A stretch of DNA of 64,000 nucleotides from Gemmatimonadaceae bacterium (GCA_019637445.1 JAHBVS010000001.1:529586-593585); one strand, 5' to 3'; positions 3,684 to 53,837 are shown, numbered from the stretch's first letter. Notes: a model not told the origin generated them from the sequence alone. Made by a program: numbers and translations.

Positions 3684-4269
3684 ACGAGTCTATTCCGGCG
3701 TAGCTCAGTTGGTAGAGCAGGTGACTGTTAATCACCGGGTCCTCGGTTCGAGTCCGAGCGCCGGAGCTGAGAAGGTCTGCGAGGAGTGTCATGCGGAAGG
3801 CGCGTATCTCCTGTGCGGGCTGAGGGTTACCGGGCACTGGTGCGTAGCGCAGCACCAGTGCCCGCTGCGTTCTGCCGGCGCGTCGCCACTCACCCGTAGC
3901 GGAAACCGTAGCAGAGCGTTTCGGCTCCAAGGCGTTGTGCATGGCGATGTGGTCGCGCCGCTTCATCACGGCAAGGTTCTCGGGGCGGTTGTCCTGCTTG
4001 TCGTCGTTCAGGTGGTGCACGCACTCATCGGCGCGCAGTAGCCGGCCGAGCACCATCTCCGCGACGACGCGGTGCTCGTAGAGGATCGCCCTCGAGCCGC
4101 TCGGCACCCGCACGTAACCGCGGTGATCGACGTGACGGGAGCCGCGGACCGGCAACGCGCCTGGCGTGGCGATGAAGCGGTGCCGTGCGCAGACGACCTG
4201 GCCGTCGGGCAGCACCCAACCACCGGCCAGCTTCGTGGTCCCGCACTTGAGGCACGCGCGCGTCGTCAC
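3682..4269 (-). CDS. HNH endonuclease (HNH_3-like) whose frame crosses the att core; 195 aa in lysogen
   Basis: GTG overlaps integrase stop (GTGA) with GGAG upstream; YEHRVVAEMVLGRLL...VHHLNDDKQDNRPENLAVM...H..MH motif. Confidence 0.82.
   Translation of the reverse strand: MTTRACLKCGTTKLAGGWVLPDGQVVCARHRFIATPGALPVRGSRHVDHRGYVRVPSGSRAILYEHRVVAEMVLGRLLRADECVHHLNDDKQDNRPENLAVMKRRDHIAMHNALEPKRSATVSATGEWRRAGRTQRALVLRYAPVPGNPQPAQEIRAFRMTLLADLLSSGARTRTEDPVINSHLLYQLSYAGIDS
3694..3766 (+). tRNA. tRNA-Asn (GTT); 3' half supplied by the prophage
   Basis: Acceptor TCCGGCG/CGCCGGA, D-arm AGCTCAGTTGGTAGAGC, anticodon stem GGTGA/TCACC with GTT at 3727-3729, T-arm CTCGG-TTCGAGT-CCGAG; no encoded CCA. Confidence 0.97.
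3725..3768 (+). repeat. attL (17-bp exact core CTGTTAATCACCGGGTC at 3725-3741, then imperfect match)
   Basis: 38/44 identical to 53794-53837. Confidence 0.93.
3831..3864 (+). terminator. Phage-supplied hairpin downstream of tRNA-Asn (terminator or processing site)
   Basis: Perfect 13-bp stem CGGGCACTGGTGC/GCACCAGTGCCCG, 8-nt loop; weak U-tract. Confidence 0.5.
3894..3912 (+). promoter_or_regulatory. Putative integrase arm-type sites (attL side)
   Basis: CCGTAGC twice at 12-bp period (3894, 3906); same arrangement near attR. Confidence 0.55.
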
Positions 4270-5953: not shown

Positions 5954-7807
5954 CTACTTGGCCTTCACCAGGTGCTTGGTGACGGCCTTCGTCATGTCGA
6001 ACATCGAGATCGCGTCCTTGCCGCCGAAGATCGGGCGCAGCTTCTCATCCGCCTTGATCATGCGGCGGTTCTTCTTGTCCTGCAGGCCGTGCTTCCTGAT
6101 GTACGCCCACAGCTTCTTGATGAGCTCGGTGCGCGGCATCGGCTTCGTGCCGACGACGGCGGCGAGCTTGGCGTCTGGCGTCACAGGCTGCATGAACTGC
6201 GCGGCTGGCTGTCGCTTGGCGACCTTCTTCTTCGGCGCCTTGGTCACCTTCACCGCCTTAGGTGCCGCGGAGGCCTTCGGCGGTGCTGTCGGCTGCTCGG
6301 CCTTCGGCGCCTCTGCCTTCGGCGTGTGCTTCTTCAGGATCGCGCCAGCGTCGATGCCGAACTGCTTGGCCATCGGCTTGAGGCGCTGCTCGAACGTCCA
6401 GCTGTCGTCGAGGCGGAAGTAGCCACCGAACGCGCGCTGCGCGAAGAGACGGCGCACCAGGTCATCGACTGTGCGCGAGGGAAGCTTGGCTAGCCGAGAC
6501 TTCCCAAGCGGCTCCCGGATGTCGCTCGAGTCCTTGATGATCGCCTGCAGCAGCGTCAACGGCTTGGCTTTGGCGATCGCAGCGAAGAGCGCGTCGAGGA
6601 GCTCCGGGGTCGCGGCTGTAAGTGCCGCCGCCTGCGCCTTCCGCGCAGCGTCCTCCTTGGCCTGCTGCTCACGCTGCTTCCGTGCGACCTCGGCCTCGCT
6701 GACCTTCTTGCCGGCCTTGCTCGTGAGCTCGCCGCGCCGGGCCTTCTCGCGGTCCTCGCGCCGCTTCACGTGCTGCGGCCAGTGCCGCTTGCAGCGGTCC
6801 TTGTTGGTGCAGACCAGGAGCGCGTGCCCGCGCGAGGCGTCGCCGGCGAACACGATACCCAGCACCGCGTAGTCGCACGTCGGCTGCCCTTGCTCGTTCT
6901 CCGCCCGCTTCCAGGAGAGGGGCCCGATCACCTTCTCGCTGCCCTTCACGCGGGGATCCACGTGCCCGAACGCGATGAAGACCTGCCGGCGCTTGGCCGC
7001 CGTCGCCGTCTCGATGGCCGCGGCCGTCGCCGGCAGCAGGTGCTCCAGCTCCGGGTGCGCCAGGTCGACGCGCACGTTGCGGTCGATCCACGCCCTCAGC
7101 TCGCGCACGGTGCGCGCCTTCTGGCCGCCGTTGTCCGGGCCGAGCAGCTTGAGCTCGTCCGGCGCGTGGCCCTCTGGCTGAAAGAGGCCTTCCTTGATCG
7201 CGCGCTTCTGGTCCGAGGTCCCGATCTTCGCGAGCTCGAGCGCATGGCCCAGCTCGATGCGGCCGTCCTCGAGGAGGCTCACGGCCTTCTCGTCGAGCTT
7301 CAGCAGCCGCAGGCGGTCGCGCACGTAGTCGACCGAGACGCCCGAGCGCTCGGCGATCTTCTCGACGGTCCAGCCCTCGAGGCGCTTCTGCAGGAGCGCA
7401 TAGCCGCGCGCCTCCTCCATCGGCTGCAGGTCGCGCCGCTTCAGGTTCTCGAACGTCAGCGCCTCGAGGAACTCGGCGTCGCCGAGCGGCCGCACGACGC
7501 ACTGCAGGTGCGTGAGGCCCGCCTTGCGCGCGGCACGGAGGCGGGTGGCGCCGGCAGCGAGCTCGTAGCGGCCGATCGCTTTCGGGTTCGGGCGCACCAG
7601 CGCGTGCGTCAGCTGGCCGCTGGCGAGCATCGACGCCGCGAGCTCGTCGATCCATGCCGCGGGGAAGTGCTTGCGTGGGTTGTCCGGGCTCTCGTCGATC
7701 AGCGAGAGGCCGATCGCCTCGACGCGCGCCTCGCCCGCGCGCTCCATCGCGCGCATCGAGGCCTCGCGGTTGGTCGGAGCGTCCTGTCGTTCCATGGTTG
7801 CCGTCAT
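5954..7807 (-). CDS. ParB/Spo0J-like protein fused to C-terminal SWIB/MDM2 domain
   Basis: NPRKHF, YELAAGATRLRAA, ENLKRRDL, HTH; K/A/P linker; FMQPVTPDAKLAAVVGTKPMPRTELIKKLWAYIRKHGLQD...MFDMTKAVTKHL. Confidence 0.9.
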   Translation of the reverse strand: MTATMERQDAPTNREASMRAMERAGEARVEAIGLSLIDESPDNPRKHFPAAWIDELAASMLASGQLTHALVRPNPKAIGRYELAAGATRLRAARKAGLTHLQCVVRPLGDAEFLEALTFENLKRRDLQPMEEARGYALLQKRLEGWTVEKIAERSGVSVDYVRDRLRLLKLDEKAVSLLEDGRIELGHALELAKIGTSDQKRAIKEGLFQPEGHAPDELKLLGPDNGGQKARTVRELRAWIDRNVRVDLAHPELEHLLPATAAAIETATAAKRRQVFIAFGHVDPRVKGSEKVIGPLSWKRAENEQGQPTCDYAVLGIVFAGDASRGHALLVCTNKDRCKRHWPQHVKRREDREKARRGELTSKAGKKVSEAEVARKQREQQAKEDAARKAQAAALTAATPELLDALFAAIAKAKPLTLLQAIIKDSSDIREPLGKSRLAKLPSRTVDDLVRRLFAQRAFGGYFRLDDSWTFEQRLKPMAKQFGIDAGAILKKHTPKAEAPKAEQPTAPPKASAAPKAVKVTKAPKKKVAKRQPAAQFMQPVTPDAKLAAVVGTKPMPRTELIKKLWAYIRKHGLQDKKNRRMIKADEKLRPIFGGKDAISMFDMTKAVTKHLVKAK

Positions 7808-10555: not shown

Positions 10556-10759
10556 CTAGGCGGCGGGGAGTGCGGGAGTGTTCTGCTTGCGCTTGAATCG
10601 CTCGACGTCGCGCGAGATCGCGGCGTACATGAAGGCGCTGCGCGTGAGGCCCTTGGCCTTGGCGGCCGCGTCGAGGTCCTCGACCTCATCCACTGGGTAG
10701 CGGAAGGTGAGGATCGCGCCCAGTCCCTTGCGCTTGCGACGGGTGACGTTGGCTGACAT
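10556..10759 (-). CDS. Ribbon-helix-helix (Arc/CopG-like) regulator in the Cro position
   Basis: ILTFRYPVDEVEDLDAAAKAKGLTRSAFMYAAI fits the RHH pattern; divergent from repressor. Confidence 0.8.
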   Translation of the reverse strand: MSANVTRRKRKGLGAILTFRYPVDEVEDLDAAAKAKGLTRSAFMYAAISRDVERFKRKQNTPALPAA

Positions 10760-10805
10760 TGTCCCTACGAGTGCAGAGGTAATACCTACCGTCAAGCTCT
10801 GGCCA

Positions 10806-10874: not shown

Positions 10875-11333
10875 ATGTTGGTAGAGCAGGCGCGGCAGGC
10901 AGCGCGCAGGGCGGTGGACGGTTCGAGCCTTCGGCGCGTGTCGTCCGAGATCGGCATCTCGCACCAGACGCTGGCCGACTTCATCGCCGCTGGCTCAACG
11001 CGAAGCCCGTACGGATCGTCGAGGGAGAAGCTGTTGGCATGGGCGCGGGCCAACGGCGCGCGCGAGCCCGGGGCTGATCAGCTGAACTTCTACCGCGGGA
11101 AGCAGGAAGCGCTGATGGGCATGATGCAGTACATCGTCTCACAGCAGGCGGAGATCGGAGCCTTCATGGACCGACTCCGTTCAGGAGAACCGGAGGATGA
11201 GCGACGGCCACGCCAGCGCACCCACGAGGAGCTCAGCCGAGAAGTCGAAGGTGCTGAAGCTGACGCCGAACTTCTTGCTCGACTGCAGTCTCTGCAGAAG
11301 TCCGCTGAGAAGAAGGGGAAGAAGCGGGCGTGA
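10875..11333 (+). CDS. XRE-type HTH repressor candidate (no S24 peptidase domain)
   Basis: SLRRVSSEIGISHQTLADFIAAG HTH, divergent from RHH gene. Confidence 0.78.
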   Translation: MLVEQARQAARRAVDGSSLRRVSSEIGISHQTLADFIAAGSTRSPYGSSREKLLAWARANGAREPGADQLNFYRGKQEALMGMMQYIVSQQAEIGAFMDRLRSGEPEDERRPRQRTHEELSREVEGAEADAELLARLQSLQKSAEKKGKKRA

Positions 11334-11678
11334 GGACTAGCGGCTCGAGGGCGCCGGTGTTGAGGGCCACCAGGATGGCGCCGTAGTCGAGGTCACGTCG
11401 ACGCGACTGCACGAACGGCGGATGGCCTGGCATTCGGTCCCAGCGCACGAGATCCTCGGCGCGAATCTTCAGCACCGGCACATCATCCACCGCCCGCAGC
11501 CACAGCCTCGTCTCCGCCATGCCCCTATCCTCGCCTGTCGCCCCTGTTTCGGAATCCGTTCGGTAATGTAGCTGCCGTGGGGAGCCTCGCAACCTGACCT
11601 AGGGCGACTGGTTTCGGCACGTGACCTGCAGCACATTGGCGCAGATACACACCAAACCCTTCACTTGTTCGAGGGCTC

Positions 11679-12317
11679 ATGCGAATCCGTGGCATCGCGC
11701 TCCTAGTCACGCTAGCGGCGGCTGCCGACTCGGCGACGAGCCAGGACGCGCGCTCGTGGCTCGACCGCTACGACAACGGCGGCCGCAGCAGTGGTAGAGG
11801 CGCGGATGAACGCATTGCGGGCTACCACGCCGTGAGTGGACGCGCGTTCCAAGCGGCCGGAGCAAGGACCCGCGGCGGCTGGCCGCAAGTCGTTCTGCGC
11901 GCGCTCTACGCCGACACGCTTGTAGAGGTGCAGGTCCCACTTGGCGACTTCGCGCCGTGGCTCGAGTCCGCAATCGACAGCTTTCTCGTCGCGAGCGCCC
12001 CGAAGGCTGGACGGGTTGTTCCGATTCGACTCGGTGAGCCCGCGGTAGACGACGTGCACGAGCGAGCCTTTGGCGCTGCACGCTACGTGAGGCCCGACAG
12101 CAGTGAGACGGTCGTGCTGTTCTTCTTTGACTTCGACGACGAGCTCGACTTCAAGGTCGAGATGTCGCCGGCGGACTTCGTGATCATCCTGGGGTTGCTC
12201 GCCGATGCCGGCGATGCCGCCGATGACCTCGCCGCCGTCGATCGGACGATCCCCTACAGAACGATGCGCGAGCGCCTGCGCCGACTCGGCGCCGCCCGAT
12301 TGCATCCAGAGGAGTGA
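11679..12317 (+). CDS. Secreted/periplasmic hypothetical accessory protein
   Basis: Signal-peptide-like N-terminus MRIRGIALLVTLAAAADS. Confidence 0.65.
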   Translation: MRIRGIALLVTLAAAADSATSQDARSWLDRYDNGGRSSGRGADERIAGYHAVSGRAFQAAGARTRGGWPQVVLRALYADTLVEVQVPLGDFAPWLESAIDSFLVASAPKAGRVVPIRLGEPAVDDVHERAFGAARYVRPDSSETVVLFFFDFDDELDFKVEMSPADFVIILGLLADAGDAADDLAAVDRTIPYRTMRERLRRLGAARLHPEE

Positions 12318-12321
12318 TCCG

Positions 12322-13380
12322 ATGAGTGGCATCATGGAGCGCGTAATCGACGAGACTCCCGTCGCGATCATCGACTTCGAAACCACGGGCCTCTCGCCCA
12401 AGTCACTGTGTAGAGTGGTTGAGGTGGCGGTGGTCCGGGTGAATCCCAATGGTGGCCACCACGTCGTGTACGACTCGCTGGTGGATCCTGGCGGGCCCGT
12501 TGCCTGCTCCAGCATTCACGGCATCTTCGACGAAGACGTTGTCGGAGCTCCGTCGTTCGTCGATGTCCTCGAGCCGCTGGCAGCCGCGCTCCGCGGGTGC
12601 GTCGTGCTCGCATTCAATGCCTCGTTCGACATGGCGTTCCTCCACTCCGAACTGGCCTTCGCGCTCAAGCGATCGGAGTCGCCGCTGCGGGTGCCGTACG
12701 GCTGCCTGATGTATATGCGCCCCGCCATCGGCATTGGGCCGCGCTGCGGGCTGCACGACGCCGTCTCTCACCACGACATCCCAGCGCCGGACCATCGCGC
12801 CGCACACGACGCGCTCGCCGGCGCACTGCTGTGGCAAGTCTATCGAGAGCACATGCGCGCGCGCGGCATCCGCACGTTCGGCGATCTCGCGGCGCGGAAG
12901 CACTACAAGTTCATGGAGAGCTGGGAGTTCGATCCGCTGCGTGGTGATGCCCTTGGGGACGTCGCGGTCCCCGCGAGCCGACTGCACTCGAAGCCACGCG
13001 TCACGCCGATCACGTACCCCGACCACGATGCAGTCGCAGCGGTGCAAGAAGCCGCTGCAGCGGAGCACTCGAATCGAGTGCGCCGGCGCGTGCGCGCGCT
13101 CCGCATCGGCGGCTATGCCCATGCACTGGTGGACGCGTTCGCGGATGCCATCATGACGCCGGAAGAGTTCCACTCCCTCGAGCGACTGCAGCGCGAACTC
13201 GAGCTCACTCCCGGCGAGATTCGGTCGGTGCATGCCGACTTCTACTCGGCGGTCTTGATGACATGCGTCGAGGATGGGTTCGTCTCGCACCAGGAGTCGA
13301 AGAACATCGCCGAGGTTGGCAGCATTCTTCGGGACCTCGGCTGGGCACCGGGCGATAACAGCGCACCCGCCGCGCCGTGA
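12322..13380 (+). CDS. DEDDh 3'-5' exonuclease (DnaQ-like) fused to TerB-like domain
   Basis: IIDFETTG, AFNASFD, HRAAHDA; C-terminal tandem DAIMTPEE / DGFVSHQE helical motifs; GAGGAG RBS. Confidence 0.85.
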   Translation: MSGIMERVIDETPVAIIDFETTGLSPKSLCRVVEVAVVRVNPNGGHHVVYDSLVDPGGPVACSSIHGIFDEDVVGAPSFVDVLEPLAAALRGCVVLAFNASFDMAFLHSELAFALKRSESPLRVPYGCLMYMRPAIGIGPRCGLHDAVSHHDIPAPDHRAAHDALAGALLWQVYREHMRARGIRTFGDLAARKHYKFMESWEFDPLRGDALGDVAVPASRLHSKPRVTPITYPDHDAVAAVQEAAAAEHSNRVRRRVRALRIGGYAHALVDAFADAIMTPEEFHSLERLQRELELTPGEIRSVHADFYSAVLMTCVEDGFVSHQESKNIAEVGSILRDLGWAPGDNSAPAAP

Positions 13381-13595
13381 TCCGCCGGATCCGGACCTAC
13401 GGGGGCGAGGGCGCGGGATCCCTGCTCGAGGTGGAGGGGCACGCCCGGGTGGGGGATCTCATCCGGGTGCCGCTGAAGGACCGCCCTGGCCACGTGGCCG
13501 AGTACGAGCTCGCACGGGATCCCAACGACACCAGCGGCACCGGCCTCTGCCTGGTCTGGCTGCGGGTGGTGGAGACGGAGCGAGAGCGCGCGTGA
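13377..13595 (+). CDS. Small hypothetical protein (72 aa)
   Basis: GTGA overlaps at both ends. Confidence 0.6.
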   Translation: MIRRIRTYGGEGAGSLLEVEGHARVGDLIRVPLKDRPGHVAEYELARDPNDTSGTGLCLVWLRVVETERERA

Positions 13596-14725
13596 GTCCC
13601 GATCCGTTCTTCAAGGGTGTCAAGGAGTGGGGCCACTACAAGCACCGCATCCTCTCCAAGTACCTGACTATCTGGGTGCGCAAGCTCGGGTCACGGCACA
13701 AGACGCTCGCCTTCGTCGACTCGTGCGCCGGGTCCGGGTACTACGACGACGACACGGCAGGGTCCCCAATCATCGCGGCGCGCCTGAACGACGCGCCCGA
13801 CCGCGGCAATCACGCGCGGGTGATGGTCTTCGCCTGCGAGCAGAACGATGAGAACTACGCGCGGCTCGCCACGGCATTGCGGCCGTGGATCCAGCGGTCG
13901 CCGCAGCTCGCGGATGCGCTTCACGGCCCGTTCCAGCTTTTCCTCGAGTCGATCGTGCAGGTCACGGAGCGCTGGCCGACGTTGTTTTTCATCGACCCGT
14001 ACGGGATGAAGGACGTGAGCATCGACGCCCTCACACCGATCCTGGAGAACCAGAGCGCGCGCAAGGAGCTCATCGTGCGGGTGCCGCCCGGCATCCTCAG
14101 CCGCTGGTGGGGGCGCCTGCAGGAGCGACCGACCAGCGAGCGCCACGCGCGCGAGCTCGACGCCTTCCGCCGCAACCTGGAGGCGTGCAACGTCGACCCG
14201 GCGTTCGCGGAGATGTTGAAGTCCGCCGAGTTCACCGGCGCGGACCGGCAGCAGGCCTTGCTCGAGCGCTACCTGGTCCCGATCTACGAGCGCTTCCGCT
14301 GGGTGCAGCTCGTGCCGATCAAGGCGACGTTCACCGGCGCGCCGCGCTACTTCATCCTGCACGCGACCGACAGCCCCGATGGCTGCGCCTACCTCAACGA
14401 CGTGGCGAGCGCGCTGCGTGACGAGCTCTATGCGACCACGGAGCAGCGGCGCGATGCCGCGCTGGGACAGGGCAGCCTCTTCGGGCCGCTGCCGGCGCCG
14501 CGCACCGTCTCGATGCGCGAGCTCGAGGAGCTGCTGCTCGAGGAGCTCCGGCACACCGGCGGCGCCCCATGGATCGAGCTGCGCGCCATGCTCGCGTCGG
14601 TCTTCGGCCCGGAGTTCCGGAAGAAGGACCATGTGCAGGCTCTACGACATCTCGTGTCGCGCCACCAGGCCCGGCCCTTCGAGGGCGCAGAGCCCGAGGA
14701 CCGCGAGACCGTCACGCCGGCCTAG
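13592..14725 (+). CDS. Three-Cys-motif partner protein (TcmP), SAM-dependent methyltransferase-like fold
   Basis: KHRILSKYL, FVDSCAGSG, GSPIIA, FFIDPYG; paired with DUF5131 gene. Confidence 0.85.
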   Translation: MSPDPFFKGVKEWGHYKHRILSKYLTIWVRKLGSRHKTLAFVDSCAGSGYYDDDTAGSPIIAARLNDAPDRGNHARVMVFACEQNDENYARLATALRPWIQRSPQLADALHGPFQLFLESIVQVTERWPTLFFIDPYGMKDVSIDALTPILENQSARKELIVRVPPGILSRWWGRLQERPTSERHARELDAFRRNLEACNVDPAFAEMLKSAEFTGADRQQALLERYLVPIYERFRWVQLVPIKATFTGAPRYFILHATDSPDGCAYLNDVASALRDELYATTEQRRDAALGQGSLFGPLPAPRTVSMRELEELLLEELRHTGGAPWIELRAMLASVFGPEFRKKDHVQALRHLVSRHQARPFEGAEPEDRETVTPA

Positions 14726-15468
14726 GCCCGCAGGAGCTCGCGCGGATACTCGTCCCAGGTGCGGCCGTCGAGCTCACGCCCACCCGCCTTGGGTGTGAAG
14801 CCGCCCCACTGCTTCCAGAAGAAGGCGACACCTGCGCGCTTGCACATGTCGCGCAGCTCCCGGGCCCAGGCGATATCGACGGGCCGCGCGCCGGCGCCGC
14901 TCTCGCCGCCGCCAATCACCCAGTCGATGCCGGAGACGTCGAGCTCGGCCAGCGAGCCCAGCAGCGGCTCAGCGCTGATGAACTTCACGACGGCCGGAAC
15001 ATCACGCAGTGCATCCGCGCGCCGCGCGACCCGCATGTCCTCGATCGACGTGCCCATCCAGATGTTCGGGGTCCAGTCGAGTTCATCGCCGAGCCGCGCG
15101 GCCCGCTCCGGCCGCTTCGTCAGCACCTGGAACTGGTGCTGCGGGCACGCATTCATGACCTCGAACACCATGCGGATCTGTTCAAGGCTGAAGTGCGCGT
15201 GGAAGACGTCGCTCATGGAGTTCACGAAGACGCGGCGCGGCTCCCGCCACTTGAACGGCACCACTAGGCGCTCCTCCCAAAACCGGGGCGCGAAGGGGTC
15301 GTTGCGATTTGCCTCGGTGTCCTTCACCGGCGGGTGCGCGAGATAACGATGGCGCGTGCGCCGCTGCGCGACGACGTGGGCGTAGCAGTTGTCGCACCCC
15401 GCCGAAATCTTCGTGCACCCGGTCATCGGGTTCCAGACTTCGTCGGTCCATTCGATGGCAGTGGGCAT
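14722..15468 (-). CDS. DUF5131 (phage Gp37/Gp68) three-Cys radical-SAM-like protein
   Basis: WNPMTGCTKISAGCDNCYA, VFVNSMSDVFH, LTKRPER, SAEPLLG, GGESG, FFWKQWGG. Confidence 0.93.
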   Translation of the reverse strand: MPTAIEWTDEVWNPMTGCTKISAGCDNCYAHVVAQRRTRHRYLAHPPVKDTEANRNDPFAPRFWEERLVVPFKWREPRRVFVNSMSDVFHAHFSLEQIRMVFEVMNACPQHQFQVLTKRPERAARLGDELDWTPNIWMGTSIEDMRVARRADALRDVPAVVKFISAEPLLGSLAELDVSGIDWVIGGGESGAGARPVDIAWARELRDMCKRAGVAFFWKQWGGFTPKAGGRELDGRTWDEYPRELLRA

Positions 15469-15637: not shown

Positions 15638-15898
15638 TTGAATGAAAGGCCGCTGTACCCCAAGCAGATCTTCTACTCGGAGCACGCAGCCGAGCGGATG
15701 GTCGAGCGAGGGTTCTCCAGCGAGGATGTGCGGCGCATCCTCTTCACCGGCGACGTTGCGGTGAGTTCGTACCAGCCGCCGAAGGGGCCGAGGCGACACG
15801 CTCGGCAGTTGGTCCTTCGAGGTCATCCCGCAAAGGTCGTCTTCGTTATCTGGCCCACGCGGTACGACATCATCACGGTGGAGTGGGTGACCGAATAG
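15638..15898 (+). CDS. DUF4258 (BrnT/RelE-like) toxin candidate
   Basis: YSEHAAERMVERGFSSEDVRRIL...IITV; TTG start with GAGGTG RBS. Confidence 0.78.
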   Translation: MNERPLYPKQIFYSEHAAERMVERGFSSEDVRRILFTGDVAVSSYQPPKGPRRHARQLVLRGHPAKVVFVIWPTRYDIITVEWVTE

Positions 15899-15990
15899 GT
15901 CACCCGCTCCTCCGGGAGCTCGCCTCGTTCAGGCACGTCGCAGCAGCACTCACGTTAGGATCACCATCTGCAGCACCAGGAGCGACCGCT

Positions 15991-16458
15991 ATGGCCAACA
16001 CCAAGCAGACCGCGCGGAAGCGCACGCGCAGCATCGCGCCCAAGAATGCCCAGACCGCGAAGGCGCCGCGGATGTCCTACGACCCCGCCGTCGACGCGGC
16101 CGCGATTGTCTTCGTGGCCAAGCCGCACGGCCGCCCCGTCACGCGCGAGCTCGCGCCCCACATCCGCGCCGACTACGTGGGCGAGCAGCTCGTCGCGTTC
16201 GAGATCCTGGACGCCTCAGCGATCCTGCCGTTGCAGGTCCTGCAGGCGATGGGACCGGCGGGGGCCATGCTCACCATCCTCGAGGCGGCAGCGGAGACCA
16301 GGCGCGAGCCGCAGACCATCCGCAAGGCGATCGCCGCCGGCAAGATCGTCGGCGCCGAGAAGGACGGCCGCGACTGGCGCGTGCCCCGGCACGCGCTGCT
16401 CAACTACATCGAGCAGCTCAAGCCGGCGGGACGGCCGCTCAAGTCTGCGGCGCGTTGA
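15991..16458 (+). CDS. DUF2283 antitoxin fused to excisionase-type HTH, with H3-like basic N-tail
   Basis: YDPAVDAAAIVF...DYVGEQLVAFEILDAS then LTILEAAAETRREPQTIRKAIAAGKI...WRVP; AGGAG 8 nt before ATG. Confidence 0.8.
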   Translation: MANTKQTARKRTRSIAPKNAQTAKAPRMSYDPAVDAAAIVFVAKPHGRPVTRELAPHIRADYVGEQLVAFEILDASAILPLQVLQAMGPAGAMLTILEAAAETRREPQTIRKAIAAGKIVGAEKDGRDWRVPRHALLNYIEQLKPAGRPLKSAAR

Positions 16459-53793: not shown

Positions 53794-53837
53794 CTGTTAA
53801 TCACCGGGTCACAGGTTCGAGTCCTGTCGCCGGAGCT
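53794..53837 (+). repeat. attR: displaced original 3' half of host tRNA-Asn
   Basis: Core identical to 3725-3741; T-arm ACAGG-TTCGAGT-CCTGT; followed by host terminator. Confidence 0.93.

What the first reader, a model, noticed from the sequence alone, without database searches (positions are those of the whole stretch)
11679..15468. Candidate defence or modification island: DEDDh-TerB exonuclease + small ORF + TcmP, converging on DUF5131
Seen: four closely spaced or overlapping + strand genes (secreted protein, DEDDh-TerB, 72 aa, TcmP) end tail-to-tail with DUF5131, the two stops sharing one CTAG (14722-14725). TcmP has a motif-I-like DSCAGSG and an amino-methyltransferase-like FIDPYG; DUF5131 has Cx6Cx2C. 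Known: TcmP and DUF5131 co-occur regularly and their function is unresolved; TerB-like domains occur in stress and conflict systems. Inference: a lysogen-expressed nucleic-acid modification or repair module, possibly anti-phage, with the exonuclease as effector or proofreader.
Basis: partly seen in the sequence, partly recalled or inferred. Interest (0 to 1): 0.7.

Follow-up and report, generated by a model that had tools for sequence, protein, structure and literature searches.

The report
Two separate accessory cassettes in prophage
The genes are real and lie in the accessory arm of a 50-kb prophage, but they are two independent mobile cassettes of still-untested function (a DnaQ-type exonuclease, and a methyltransferase paired with a radical-SAM-like enzyme), not one coupled defence island.

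Summary
Four co-directional, partly translationally coupled + strand genes end tail-to-tail with DUF5131: a signal-peptide protein, a DEDDh exonuclease with a TerB/Tic110-like tail, a 72-aa orphan and TcmP. The two stops share CTAG.

The locus lies inside a ~50-kb tRNA-Asn-integrated prophage, between the regulatory switch and the tail-fibre genes.

Of 33 other loci carrying the DEDDh-TerB-like protein, only one also has TcmP/DUF5131, and that one is a sister prophage at the same insertion site. Of 14 other TcmP + DUF5131 (or radical-SAM) loci, only that same one has the exonuclease.

These are therefore two separable modules, and both are already listed as untested PADLOC candidates (PDC-S48; PDC-M30/M41).

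TcmP models as a class I SAM methyltransferase. It is closest to RlmJ and RsmJ, and carries a C-terminal winged helix. DUF5131 keeps its CX6CX2C motif.

The pair recurs across phyla as a convergent cassette, often sharing 4 nt at the stops. It sits directly behind the immunity repressor in Gordonia phages, and also on plasmids and ICE-like elements.

Most likely it is a mobile-element nucleic-acid modification cassette. Its function remains untested.

The parts
3725..3768 (+). attL: the 3' half of tRNA-Asn (gene 3694-3767), left end of the prophage
   Evidence: ARAGORN and Rfam. A 44-nt imperfect direct repeat matches 53794-53837.
53794..53837 (+). attR: displaced copy of the tRNA-Asn 3' half, right end of the ~50-kb prophage
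   Evidence: Host genes (DUF1295, PurK) follow it.
10556..10795 (-). Small ribbon-helix-helix-like gene, first gene of the leftward operon (towards ParB-SWIB and the integrase)
   Evidence: ORF and GC3. Promoter-like site at 10834-10806. The 72- and 67-aa genes at this position in L001 and L009 match each other, and the 67-aa genes in L003 and L009 give a weak TacA1 hit. No match to the window ORF itself was found.
10875..11333 (+). Putative HTH regulator, first rightward gene at the switch region. The start is inferred from its homologues; the longest ORF starts at 10707.
   Evidence: Homologues at the same position in L001 (50% identity, 1e-46), L009, L003 and L091. No Pfam or PHROG hit.
11233..11592 (-). 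Conserved 119-aa minus-strand gene that separates the regulator from the cargo operon
   Evidence: Homologue in L001 (40% identity, 2e-18).
11679..12317 (+). ORF1: 212-aa protein with an N-terminal signal-like segment, no known family
   Evidence: Homologue just upstream of the exonuclease in L003-L005 (8e-34; 36% identity). No family hits.
12322..13380 (+). DnaQ-type DEDDh 3'-5' exonuclease (aa 1-~205) plus a C-terminal four-helix TerB/Tic110-like domain (aa ~250-345). Matches PADLOC PDC-S48.
   Evidence: AF2 model, pLDDT 90. Foldseek hits to the PolC, DinG and epsilon exonuclease domains. C-terminal domain.
13377..13595 (+). 72-aa orphan ORF, overlapped at both ends by GTGA
   Evidence: GC3 0.90. 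Overlaps. No homologue found.
13592..14725 (+). TcmP: class I SAM-methyltransferase fold (aa ~10-290) plus a C-terminal winged-helix-like domain (aa ~308-360)
   Evidence: TIGR04474, 105.5 bits. AF2 model, pLDDT 88.5. Foldseek top hit RlmJ, and all 50 listed hits are SAM-dependent transferases, nearly all methyltransferases. RsmJ profile match through motif IV. A relative carries the GMT-like wHTH domain. Conserved residues.
14722..15468 (-). DUF5131 (phage Gp37/Gp68 family): three-Cys C18-x6-C25-x2-C28, radical-SAM superfamily subgroup
   Evidence: PF07505, 5e-91. PADLOC M41B/M30B. Cys motif conserved. SFLD listing in PMC9477430.
15469..15637 (.). A+T-rich intergenic region with divergent promoter-like elements, for DUF5131 (minus strand) and the DUF4258 gene (plus strand)
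   Evidence: Minus-strand TTGATA-16-TAAAAT at 15613-15586. Plus-strand TTGCAT-17-TATTAT read directly from the sequence.
15638..16458 (+). Neighbouring third cassette: DUF4258 (15638-15898) and DUF2283 + HTH_17 (15883-16458). It looks like a toxin-antitoxin pair.
   Evidence: Pfam. The same pair lies beside TcmP/DUF5131 in L010.

Best explanation
SHOWN. The finding lies in the accessory arm of a ~50-kb temperate phage integrated at tRNA-Asn. It holds two separable cassettes that happen to be co-transcribed here.

Cassette A is ORF1 plus a DnaQ-type DEDDh 3'-5' exonuclease fused to a TerB/Tic110-like helical domain. This is a widespread stand-alone protein.

Cassette B is TcmP plus DUF5131, a mobile two-gene unit.

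INFERRED. In cassette B, TcmP binds nucleic acid, probably DNA, through its winged helix. It transfers a methyl group from SAM to an exocyclic amino group. This follows from its RlmJ/RsmJ-like fold and its D-P-x-G motif IV. DUF5131 uses a three-Cys [4Fe-4S] site and SAM for a radical step on the same substrate. Together they install a base modification that marks the DNA of the mobile element, and of its host while the element is resident. The mark would shield that DNA from nucleases, or act as a 'self' label. The convergent, stop-sharing gene layout gives each gene its own promoter.

The exonuclease most likely trims 3' ends of DNA, independently of cassette B. Its TerB-like domain would act as a regulatory or docking module.
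For: Prophage context:
- att repeat.
- Integrase and ParB.
- Head, portal, terminase and DnaB genes.

Separability of the two cassettes:
- The exonuclease with its C-terminal domain occurs without the pair in L003-L008.
- The same is true of 22 genome loci and 5 viral loci.
- The pair occurs without the exonuclease in L009, L010, L091 and L092.
- It also does so in Gordonia phages and in 7 plasmid or ICE loci.

TcmP as a methyltransferase:
- AF2 and Foldseek give RlmJ as the top hit, and all 50 listed hits are SAM-dependent transferases, nearly all methyltransferases.
- The RsmJ profile alignment runs through motif IV.
- K17, D43, G47, G49, E83 and D135 are kept in at least 20 of 21 diverse members.
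- A relative carries a wHTH domain.

DUF5131 as radical-SAM-like:
- The CX6CX2C motif is conserved.
- SFLD lists DUF5131 as a radical-SAM subgroup.
- In a haloarchaeal plasmid TcmP is instead paired with canonical CX3CX2C radical SAM proteins that have a similar 'TGC..GC..CY' context.

Mobile-element contexts of the pair:
- Directly behind the immunity repressor in Fairfaxidum and ThankyouJordi.
- Among ssb, H-NS, DUF932 and radC genes on a Sulfitobacter plasmid.
- Next to integrases.
- Solitary DUF5131 in phages sits with dcm, dTMP kinase and DnaN.
Against: - No modification, enzymatic activity or expression has been measured for any member. The literature searches found no functional study.
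- The closest structural relatives of TcmP methylate RNA, not DNA.
- PADLOC lists both cassettes as defence candidates. The pair also lies near toxin-antitoxin and nuclease genes on some plasmids. A defence role is therefore not excluded.
- Here the exonuclease and TcmP are linked by two start/stop overlaps. Co-translation, and possibly cooperation in this lineage, remains possible.
- Only 2 of 25 viral DUF5131 loci carry TcmP. DUF5131 therefore does not need TcmP.
Confidence: 0.5

Rival explanations
1. One reading: one integrated, lysogen-expressed defence or modification island, in which the DEDDh-TerB exonuclease is the effector or proofreader for TcmP/DUF5131.
For: - The genes are co-directional, and two GTGA start/stop overlaps link the exonuclease, the 72-aa ORF and TcmP.
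- The same gene order occurs in L001.
- All three proteins match PADLOC candidate models.
Against: - L001 is a sister prophage at the same UvrA-proximal site, so it is not independent evidence.
- None of the other 32 exonuclease loci has the pair, and none of the other 13 pair loci has the exonuclease.
- The linking 72-aa ORF is not conserved.
Confidence: 0.1
2. Both cassettes are anti-phage defence systems expressed from the prophage. This follows the PADLOC labels PDC-S48 and PDC-M30/M41. The pair would attack or disable incoming phage nucleic acid rather than mark self DNA.
For: - PADLOC hits.
- The position matches that of repressor-linked defence genes such as lambda rexAB and CarolAnn 43/44 (PMC6426606).
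- In Gordonia phages TcmP follows the immunity repressor.
- An Agrobacterium locus is flanked by DUF3800, GIY-YIG, patatin and an integrase.
- In S. meliloti a TcmP gene lies close to hna and rises with it (PMC12445080).
Against: - The PADLOC PDC entries carry no description in the library, and I know of no experimental test of them.
- DUF5131 is common in phage DNA-metabolism modules without TcmP.
- The pair also sits among ssb and radC genes on a plasmid, which resembles a leading region. That fits protection of the element better.
- Distant exonuclease homologues have housekeeping-type neighbours, such as LigA and amidohydrolases, and no defence genes recur.
Confidence: 0.25
3. The genes serve the phage's own lytic DNA metabolism, with no role in the lysogen. 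The exonuclease would work in replication or recombination. TcmP/DUF5131 would modify progeny DNA so that it escapes host restriction.
For: - PHROG 192 'DNA polymerase exonuclease subunit' hit, 2e-32.
- Foldseek hits to the PolC and epsilon exonuclease domains.
- Fusions of the exonuclease and C-terminal domain with BRCT, and LigA as a neighbour.
- DUF5131 lies beside dcm, dTMP kinase, DnaN and DnaQ-like genes in phages.
Against: - The genes lie outside the replication module (DnaB at 45-47 kb).
- They are on the strand opposite to both the early-left and the late operons.
- The local G+C content is lower.
- Content at this position varies between sister prophages. That is typical of accessory cargo.
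Confidence: 0.15

Closest known systems
TcmP / DUF5131 pairs (NCBIfam TIGR04474 with Pfam PF07505; PADLOC candidates PDC-M30 and PDC-M41)
   Same: - Both family models are matched above their cutoffs, and the genes are adjacent.
- The convergent layout with a 4-nt shared stop is also seen in ThankyouJordi and in plasmids of Streptomyces, Agrobacterium and Sinorhizobium.
- All sit on mobile elements.
   Different: - The window's TcmP belongs to a rare, divergent sub-branch. The word-indexed homologue search found only 13 relatives.
- Its match to the PADLOC 'A' models is weak (4e-10).
- Here the pair is co-transcribed with an unrelated exonuclease.
PADLOC PDC-S48 (single-gene DEDDh candidate)
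   Same: The HMM match (2e-52) spans both the exonuclease and most of the C-terminal region. The catalytic DEDDh residues are intact.
   Different: - No tested function exists for the candidate.
- In this lineage a signal-peptide protein (window, L003) or a small membrane protein (L001) sits directly upstream. Distant homologues lack it.
E. coli RlmJ (23S rRNA m6A2030) and RsmJ (16S rRNA m2G1516) methyltransferases
   Same: - Best structural match is RlmJ 7p9o, at 2e-6.
- Best sequence-profile match is RsmJ 2r6z, aligned through motif IV.
- The N-terminal K-H segment aligns weakly with RlmJ residues 18-52.
   Different: - Identity is about 14%, and TM-scores are only 0.38-0.51.
- TcmP has an added winged-helix domain.
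- Motif IV reads D-P-[YFC]-G rather than DPPY or DPMF.
- TcmP is carried by mobile elements and paired with a radical-SAM-like enzyme.
- Its substrate is unknown.
Radical SAM superfamily (SFLD DUF5131 subgroup; weak similarity to TIGR04471 'radical SAM mobile pair protein A')
   Same: Three conserved cysteines sit near the N-terminus, followed by an aromatic residue. A GGES segment is conserved in the Gordonia phage homologues compared. SFLD lists DUF5131 as a subgroup.
   Different: The spacing is CX6CX2C, not CX3CX2C. The TIGR04471 score (70 bits) is far below its cutoff of 355. No biochemical evidence exists.
TerB / Tic110-type helical repeat domains fused to nucleases (the Ter-linked DNA-processing systems of Anantharaman, Iyer and Aravind 2012, cited from my own knowledge)
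   Same: There are two helix-hairpin units, each with conserved D-x6-E and a following L...LG[LW]. The profile retrieves TerB + Tic110 + HNH proteins.
   Different: The window protein itself does not reach Pfam's TerB threshold. No ter operon genes lie nearby.
Repressor-linked prophage cargo such as lambda rexAB and Gordonia phage CarolAnn 43/44
   Same: Accessory genes lie close to the immunity or switch region of a temperate phage (for the principle; for TcmP behind the repressor).
   Different: There is no sequence relationship. In the window a conserved minus-strand gene separates the regulator from the cargo operon. Co-transcription with a repressor is therefore not expected here.

Membership tests
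TcmP (NCBIfam TIGR04474) | HMM score above the curated cutoff (53 bits) | tested here: met
   105.5 bits, aa 118-377 of the long ORF, which is aa 12-271 of the corrected protein.
TcmP (NCBIfam TIGR04474) | Adjacent to a three-Cys-motif (DUF5131 or radical SAM) partner gene | tested here: met
   DUF5131 lies tail-to-tail and the stops share CTAG.
DUF5131 / phage Gp37-Gp68 (Pfam PF07505) | Full-length HMM match above the gathering score (28.9 bits) | tested here: met
   305 bits, profile positions 2-243 of 243.
DUF5131 / phage Gp37-Gp68 (Pfam PF07505) | Conserved N-terminal three-Cys motif | tested here: met
   C18, C25 and C28 are each conserved in at least 90% of 30 aligned sequences.
Radical SAM superfamily | Canonical CX3CX2C cluster-binding motif | tested here: not met
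   The spacing is CX6CX2C. Variant spacings do occur in accepted members (my own knowledge).
Radical SAM superfamily | [4Fe-4S] cluster binding and reductive cleavage of SAM | not testable with these tools
   Needs anaerobic biochemistry. Only the SFLD listing and the pairing of TcmP with canonical radical SAM proteins in Halopiger bear on it.
DEDDh (DnaQ-like) 3'-5' exonucleases (Pfam PF00929) | HMM match plus the Exo I, II and III residues D, E, D, H, D | tested here: met
   58 bits against a cutoff of 24. D18, E20, D103, H158 and D163 are invariant. The fold matches the epsilon, PolC and DinG exonuclease domains.
TerB (Pfam PF05099) | HMM match of the C-terminal domain at family threshold | tested here: inconclusive
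   The window protein gives no hit. Three of 30 homologues hit TerB weakly (best 3.5e-3), and 19 of 30 hit Tic110. The domain profile finds P0102 at 7e-27, and Pfam calls P0102 TerB (72.7 bits) + Tic110 + HNH.
PADLOC PDC-S48 | Match to the PDC-S48 model | tested here: met
   PDLC05027, 2.4e-52, aa 52-375 of the long ORF.
PADLOC PDC-M30 / PDC-M41 | Adjacent matches to both the A and B models | tested here: inconclusive
   B is strong (5e-94 and 7e-89). A is weak (M30A 4e-10, M41A 4e-4). PADLOC's own system rules were not run.
Anti-phage defence system (functional class) | Protection against phage when expressed | not testable with these tools
   No experimental report was found.
Type II restriction-modification | A methyltransferase paired with a recognisable restriction endonuclease | tested here: not met
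   The partner is DUF5131, with no endonuclease family hit. DUF5131 is also often solitary in phages.

The most novel reading that the evidence does not exclude
TcmP and DUF5131 together make a base modification of DNA not yet described, by combining N-methyl transfer with radical-SAM chemistry. In this phage lineage the co-translated DEDDh-TerB exonuclease has been recruited as a restriction-like effector that degrades DNA lacking the mark. That would be a restriction-modification analogue built from a radical-SAM enzyme and a processive exonuclease.
Probability: 0.06. Interest if true: 0.85.

Novelty: new member of a known kind. Interest (0 to 1): 0.35.

Why it matters
TcmP/DUF5131 is a widespread 'known unknown'. 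DUF5131 alone occurs in 180 isolate-phage records and 428 plasmid records. No function has been assigned.

This work adds three things:
- TcmP has an RlmJ/RsmJ-like amino-methyltransferase fold with a DNA-binding-type winged helix.
- The convergent, stop-sharing layout is conserved across phyla.
- Cultivable Gordonia phages (Fairfaxidum, ThankyouJordi, Easley, BaxterFox) carry the pair directly behind their immunity repressor. Modification and defence assays are therefore immediately feasible.

It also corrects the picture for this window. The exonuclease is not part of that system, so any experiment should treat the two cassettes separately.

Tried and rejected
- A direct Pfam TerB assignment for the window protein gave no hit. 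Only superfamily-level support came later.
- Homology of the 72-aa ORF to the small ORFs upstream of TcmP in other loci: none found. I rejected it as a conserved third component.
- ORF1 as a general partner of the exonuclease: it was found only in L003-L005.
- Literature searches on DUF5131, TcmP, PDC-M30/M41/S48, Gp37Gp68, GMT-wHTH and the Gordonia phages found no functional study.
- Public sequencing runs that could show expression: none listed.
- PDB sequence search with DUF5131: nothing.
- BFVD fold search with TcmP: only generic methyltransferases.
- Rfam scan of the window: only the tRNA.
- Recurrent neighbours of distant exonuclease homologues: none, only scattered LigA, amidohydrolases and transposases.
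- Naming the organism through cluster look-up gave no names. The closest species-representative genome for the exonuclease is a Gemmatimonadales MAG at 42% identity.
- A co-transcript with the HTH regulator, on the rexAB model, was rejected for the window. A conserved minus-strand gene lies in between.

Full report
**1. What is in the sequence**

The five ORFs exist, and the GC3 frame plot supports the stated frames. Reading the junctions gives better gene starts.
- The exonuclease begins at ATG 12322, 7 nt after GAGGAG and 4 nt after the ORF1 stop.
- The 72-aa ORF begins at GTG 13377 and overlaps the exonuclease stop as GTGA.
- TcmP begins at GTG 13592 and overlaps the 72-aa ORF stop, again as GTGA.
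- The TcmP stop and the DUF5131 stop share CTAG at 14722-14725.

DUF5131 has its own upstream region. This is an A+T-rich 169-bp spacer with a minus-strand promoter-like site and a plus-strand one for the next gene.

**2. Context**

The window holds a ~50-kb prophage.
- tRNA-Asn lies at 3694-3767. Its 3' half is repeated imperfectly at 53794-53837.
- Host genes flank the element: UvrA and FtsX on the left, DUF1295 and PurK on the right.
- The integrase and a ParB-SWIB protein sit at the left end.
- Major head, protease, portal, large terminase and DnaB genes lie at 34-47 kb.

The finding lies between the divergent regulatory region and the tail-fibre end. That region holds an RHH-like gene transcribed leftward and an HTH gene transcribed rightward. 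The finding is on the strand opposite to both flanking operons, in a stretch of lower G+C (0.65-0.67 against 0.70-0.74).

A conserved minus-strand gene (11233-11592) separates the HTH regulator from ORF1. The cargo operon therefore needs its own promoter. No convincing one was found.

**3. The exonuclease**

- It matches Pfam RNase_T (2e-15), PHROG 192 and several DnaQ/PolC NCBIfam models below their cutoffs. It also matches PADLOC PDC-S48 at 2e-52.
- Thirty-eight full-length homologues keep D18, E20, D103, H158 and D163.
- The AF2 model (pLDDT 90) matches the exonuclease domains of PolC, DinG, Cas2-DnaQ, epsilon, RNase T and TREX1.
- The C-terminal ~100 residues form four helices with two D-x6-E...L...LG units.
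- For that C-terminal domain, Pfam gives Tic110 in 19 of 30 homologues and TerB in 3 of 30.
- A profile of the domain hits the Tic110 crystal structure 4bm5 at 3e-5.
- An exhaustive profile search finds 1804 representatives. Their architectures include exonuclease + domain (+/- BRCT), domain + BRCT, and multi-repeat proteins that Pfam calls TerB + Tic110 + HNH.

'TerB-like' is therefore fair at superfamily level only.

**4. TcmP and DUF5131**

TcmP:
- It scores 105.5 bits on TIGR04474, against a cutoff of 53.
- Its AF2 model (pLDDT 88.5) is a class I SAM methyltransferase. The best match is E. coli RlmJ, followed by Trm1. All 50 listed matches are SAM-dependent transferases, nearly all methyltransferases.
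- The sequence profile aligns with RsmJ through 'FFIDP'.
- K17, D43, G47, G49, G57-S58, E83 and D135 are kept in at least 20 of 21 members from four phyla.
- Residues ~308-360 form three helices plus a hairpin. A relative carries Pfam 'GMT-like wHTH' there.

DUF5131:
- It is a full-length PF07505 member (5e-91) with C18-x6-C25-x2-C28 conserved.
- SFLD lists DUF5131 as a radical-SAM subgroup (PMC9477430).
- On a Halopiger plasmid TcmP follows canonical CX3CX2C radical SAM genes whose motif context resembles that of DUF5131.

**5. Do the parts belong together?**

Exonuclease loci:
- L001/L002 is a sister prophage beside UvrA. It has the same order: exonuclease, small ORF, TcmP, then DUF5131 on the opposite strand.
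- L003-L005 have ORF1 + exonuclease but no pair.
- L006-L008 have the exonuclease alone.
- Twenty-two species-representative genomes and five viral contigs have the exonuclease with its C-terminal domain. None has TcmP or DUF5131 within 7-10 kb.

Pair loci:
- L009, L010, L091 and L092 have the pair and no exonuclease.
- So do Gordonia phages Fairfaxidum and ThankyouJordi.
- So do seven plasmid or ICE loci.

Tally: 1 of 33 in one direction and 1 of 14 in the other, and both are the same non-independent locus. The small ORFs upstream of TcmP are unrelated to one another. These are two modules.

**6. The pair as a cassette**

- Eleven of fifteen pair loci are convergent.
- In six of them the annotated ends overlap by 4 nt. 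Five were read as CTAG or CTAA: the window, L009, ThankyouJordi, Streptomyces canus and Agrobacterium. Sinorhizobium shows the 4-nt overlap by coordinates only.
- The co-directional forms occur in Pseudomonas, Sulfitobacter and Halopiger.
- In Fairfaxidum and ThankyouJordi, TcmP starts 3 nt after the immunity repressor gene and lies near the integrase.
- On a Sulfitobacter plasmid the pair sits among H-NS, ssb, DUF932 and radC genes.
- In Agrobacterium it sits between DUF3800, GIY-YIG, an integrase and patatin genes.
- DUF5131 alone is common in phages: 180 isolate records, including Che9c gp68 and phiE125 gp37. There it is usually without TcmP (23 of 25 viral loci) and sits beside dcm, dTMP kinase or DnaN.

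**7. Mechanism**

Shown: the folds, motifs, modularity, mobility and gene layout.

Inferred: TcmP is an amino-group methyltransferase aimed at nucleic acid by its winged helix. DUF5131 adds a radical-SAM step. The product is a base modification that marks the element's DNA, and the host's DNA while the element is resident.

I favour modification for self-protection or self-marking over direct attack for three reasons. DUF5131 is tolerated alone in many phages. The pair appears on every kind of mobile element. It also appears in a plasmid region typical of early-entry functions.

A defence role, as PADLOC's label implies, remains a serious rival.

The exonuclease most likely trims DNA 3' ends on its own. 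Its BRCT fusions and LigA neighbours point to DNA-end processing.

**8. Novelty and verdict**

Both modules belong to known but uncharacterised families that are already listed as defence candidates. The window adds a divergent TcmP branch and an accidental juxtaposition. It is a new member of a known kind and of moderate interest. The main practical gain is that cultivable Gordonia phages offer a direct test bed.

Noticed in passing
window 3694-3768 and 53794-53837: The prophage att sites are a 44-nt imperfect repeat of the tRNA-Asn 3' half. The two copies differ by paired changes in the T-stem (ctc/gag against aca/tgt), so both would still fold.
   Followed up: partly
window 5954-7807 (-): A 617-aa prophage protein combines ParB_N and HTH_ParB with a C-terminal SWIB/MDM2 domain (1.6e-26). 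That is an unusual fusion for a phage partition or early protein. Sister prophages have ParB proteins of 520-554 aa at the same place.
   Followed up: no
window 15638-16458 (+); L010 9637-10357: A DUF4258 gene overlaps a DUF2283 + HTH_17 gene, which looks like a toxin-antitoxin pair. The same pair lies next to TcmP/DUF5131 in an unrelated metagenomic prophage (L010).
   Followed up: partly
L175 (Halopiger xanaduensis plasmid pHALXA02) 2320-6110: In this archaeon TcmP follows two canonical CX3CX2C radical SAM genes instead of DUF5131. A ThiF-family adenylyltransferase lies 2 kb downstream.
   Followed up: partly
L176 (P. aeruginosa plasmid NZ_CP124633) 4980-8497: Two TcmP genes flank a DUF5131 gene that reads as two overlapping frames, probably a frameshift or pseudogene. 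They lie beside a DEAD/DEAH helicase and a DUF6094 gene in an ICE-like backbone.
   Followed up: no
L128, L142, L135 (viral contigs); L082: DnaQ-type exonucleases that lack the TerB-like tail lie within a few kb of solitary DUF5131 genes in some viral contigs. DUF5131 therefore does neighbour generic exonucleases, though not this family.
   Followed up: no
L001 7771-8001; window 11679-12317; L003 6113-6745: The gene just upstream of the exonuclease always encodes an exported or membrane-type protein. It is a 76-aa protein with a C-terminal hydrophobic helix in L001, and ~210-aa signal-peptide proteins in the window and L003. The 76-aa protein showed no detectable similarity to ORF1.
   Followed up: partly
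H22, H37, H41 (Mycobacterium abscessus prophages): In these records DUF5131 is annotated 'RNA methyltransferase'. In one record it lies next to a 'PAPS reductase-like domain protein', another family linked to DNA modification.
   Followed up: no
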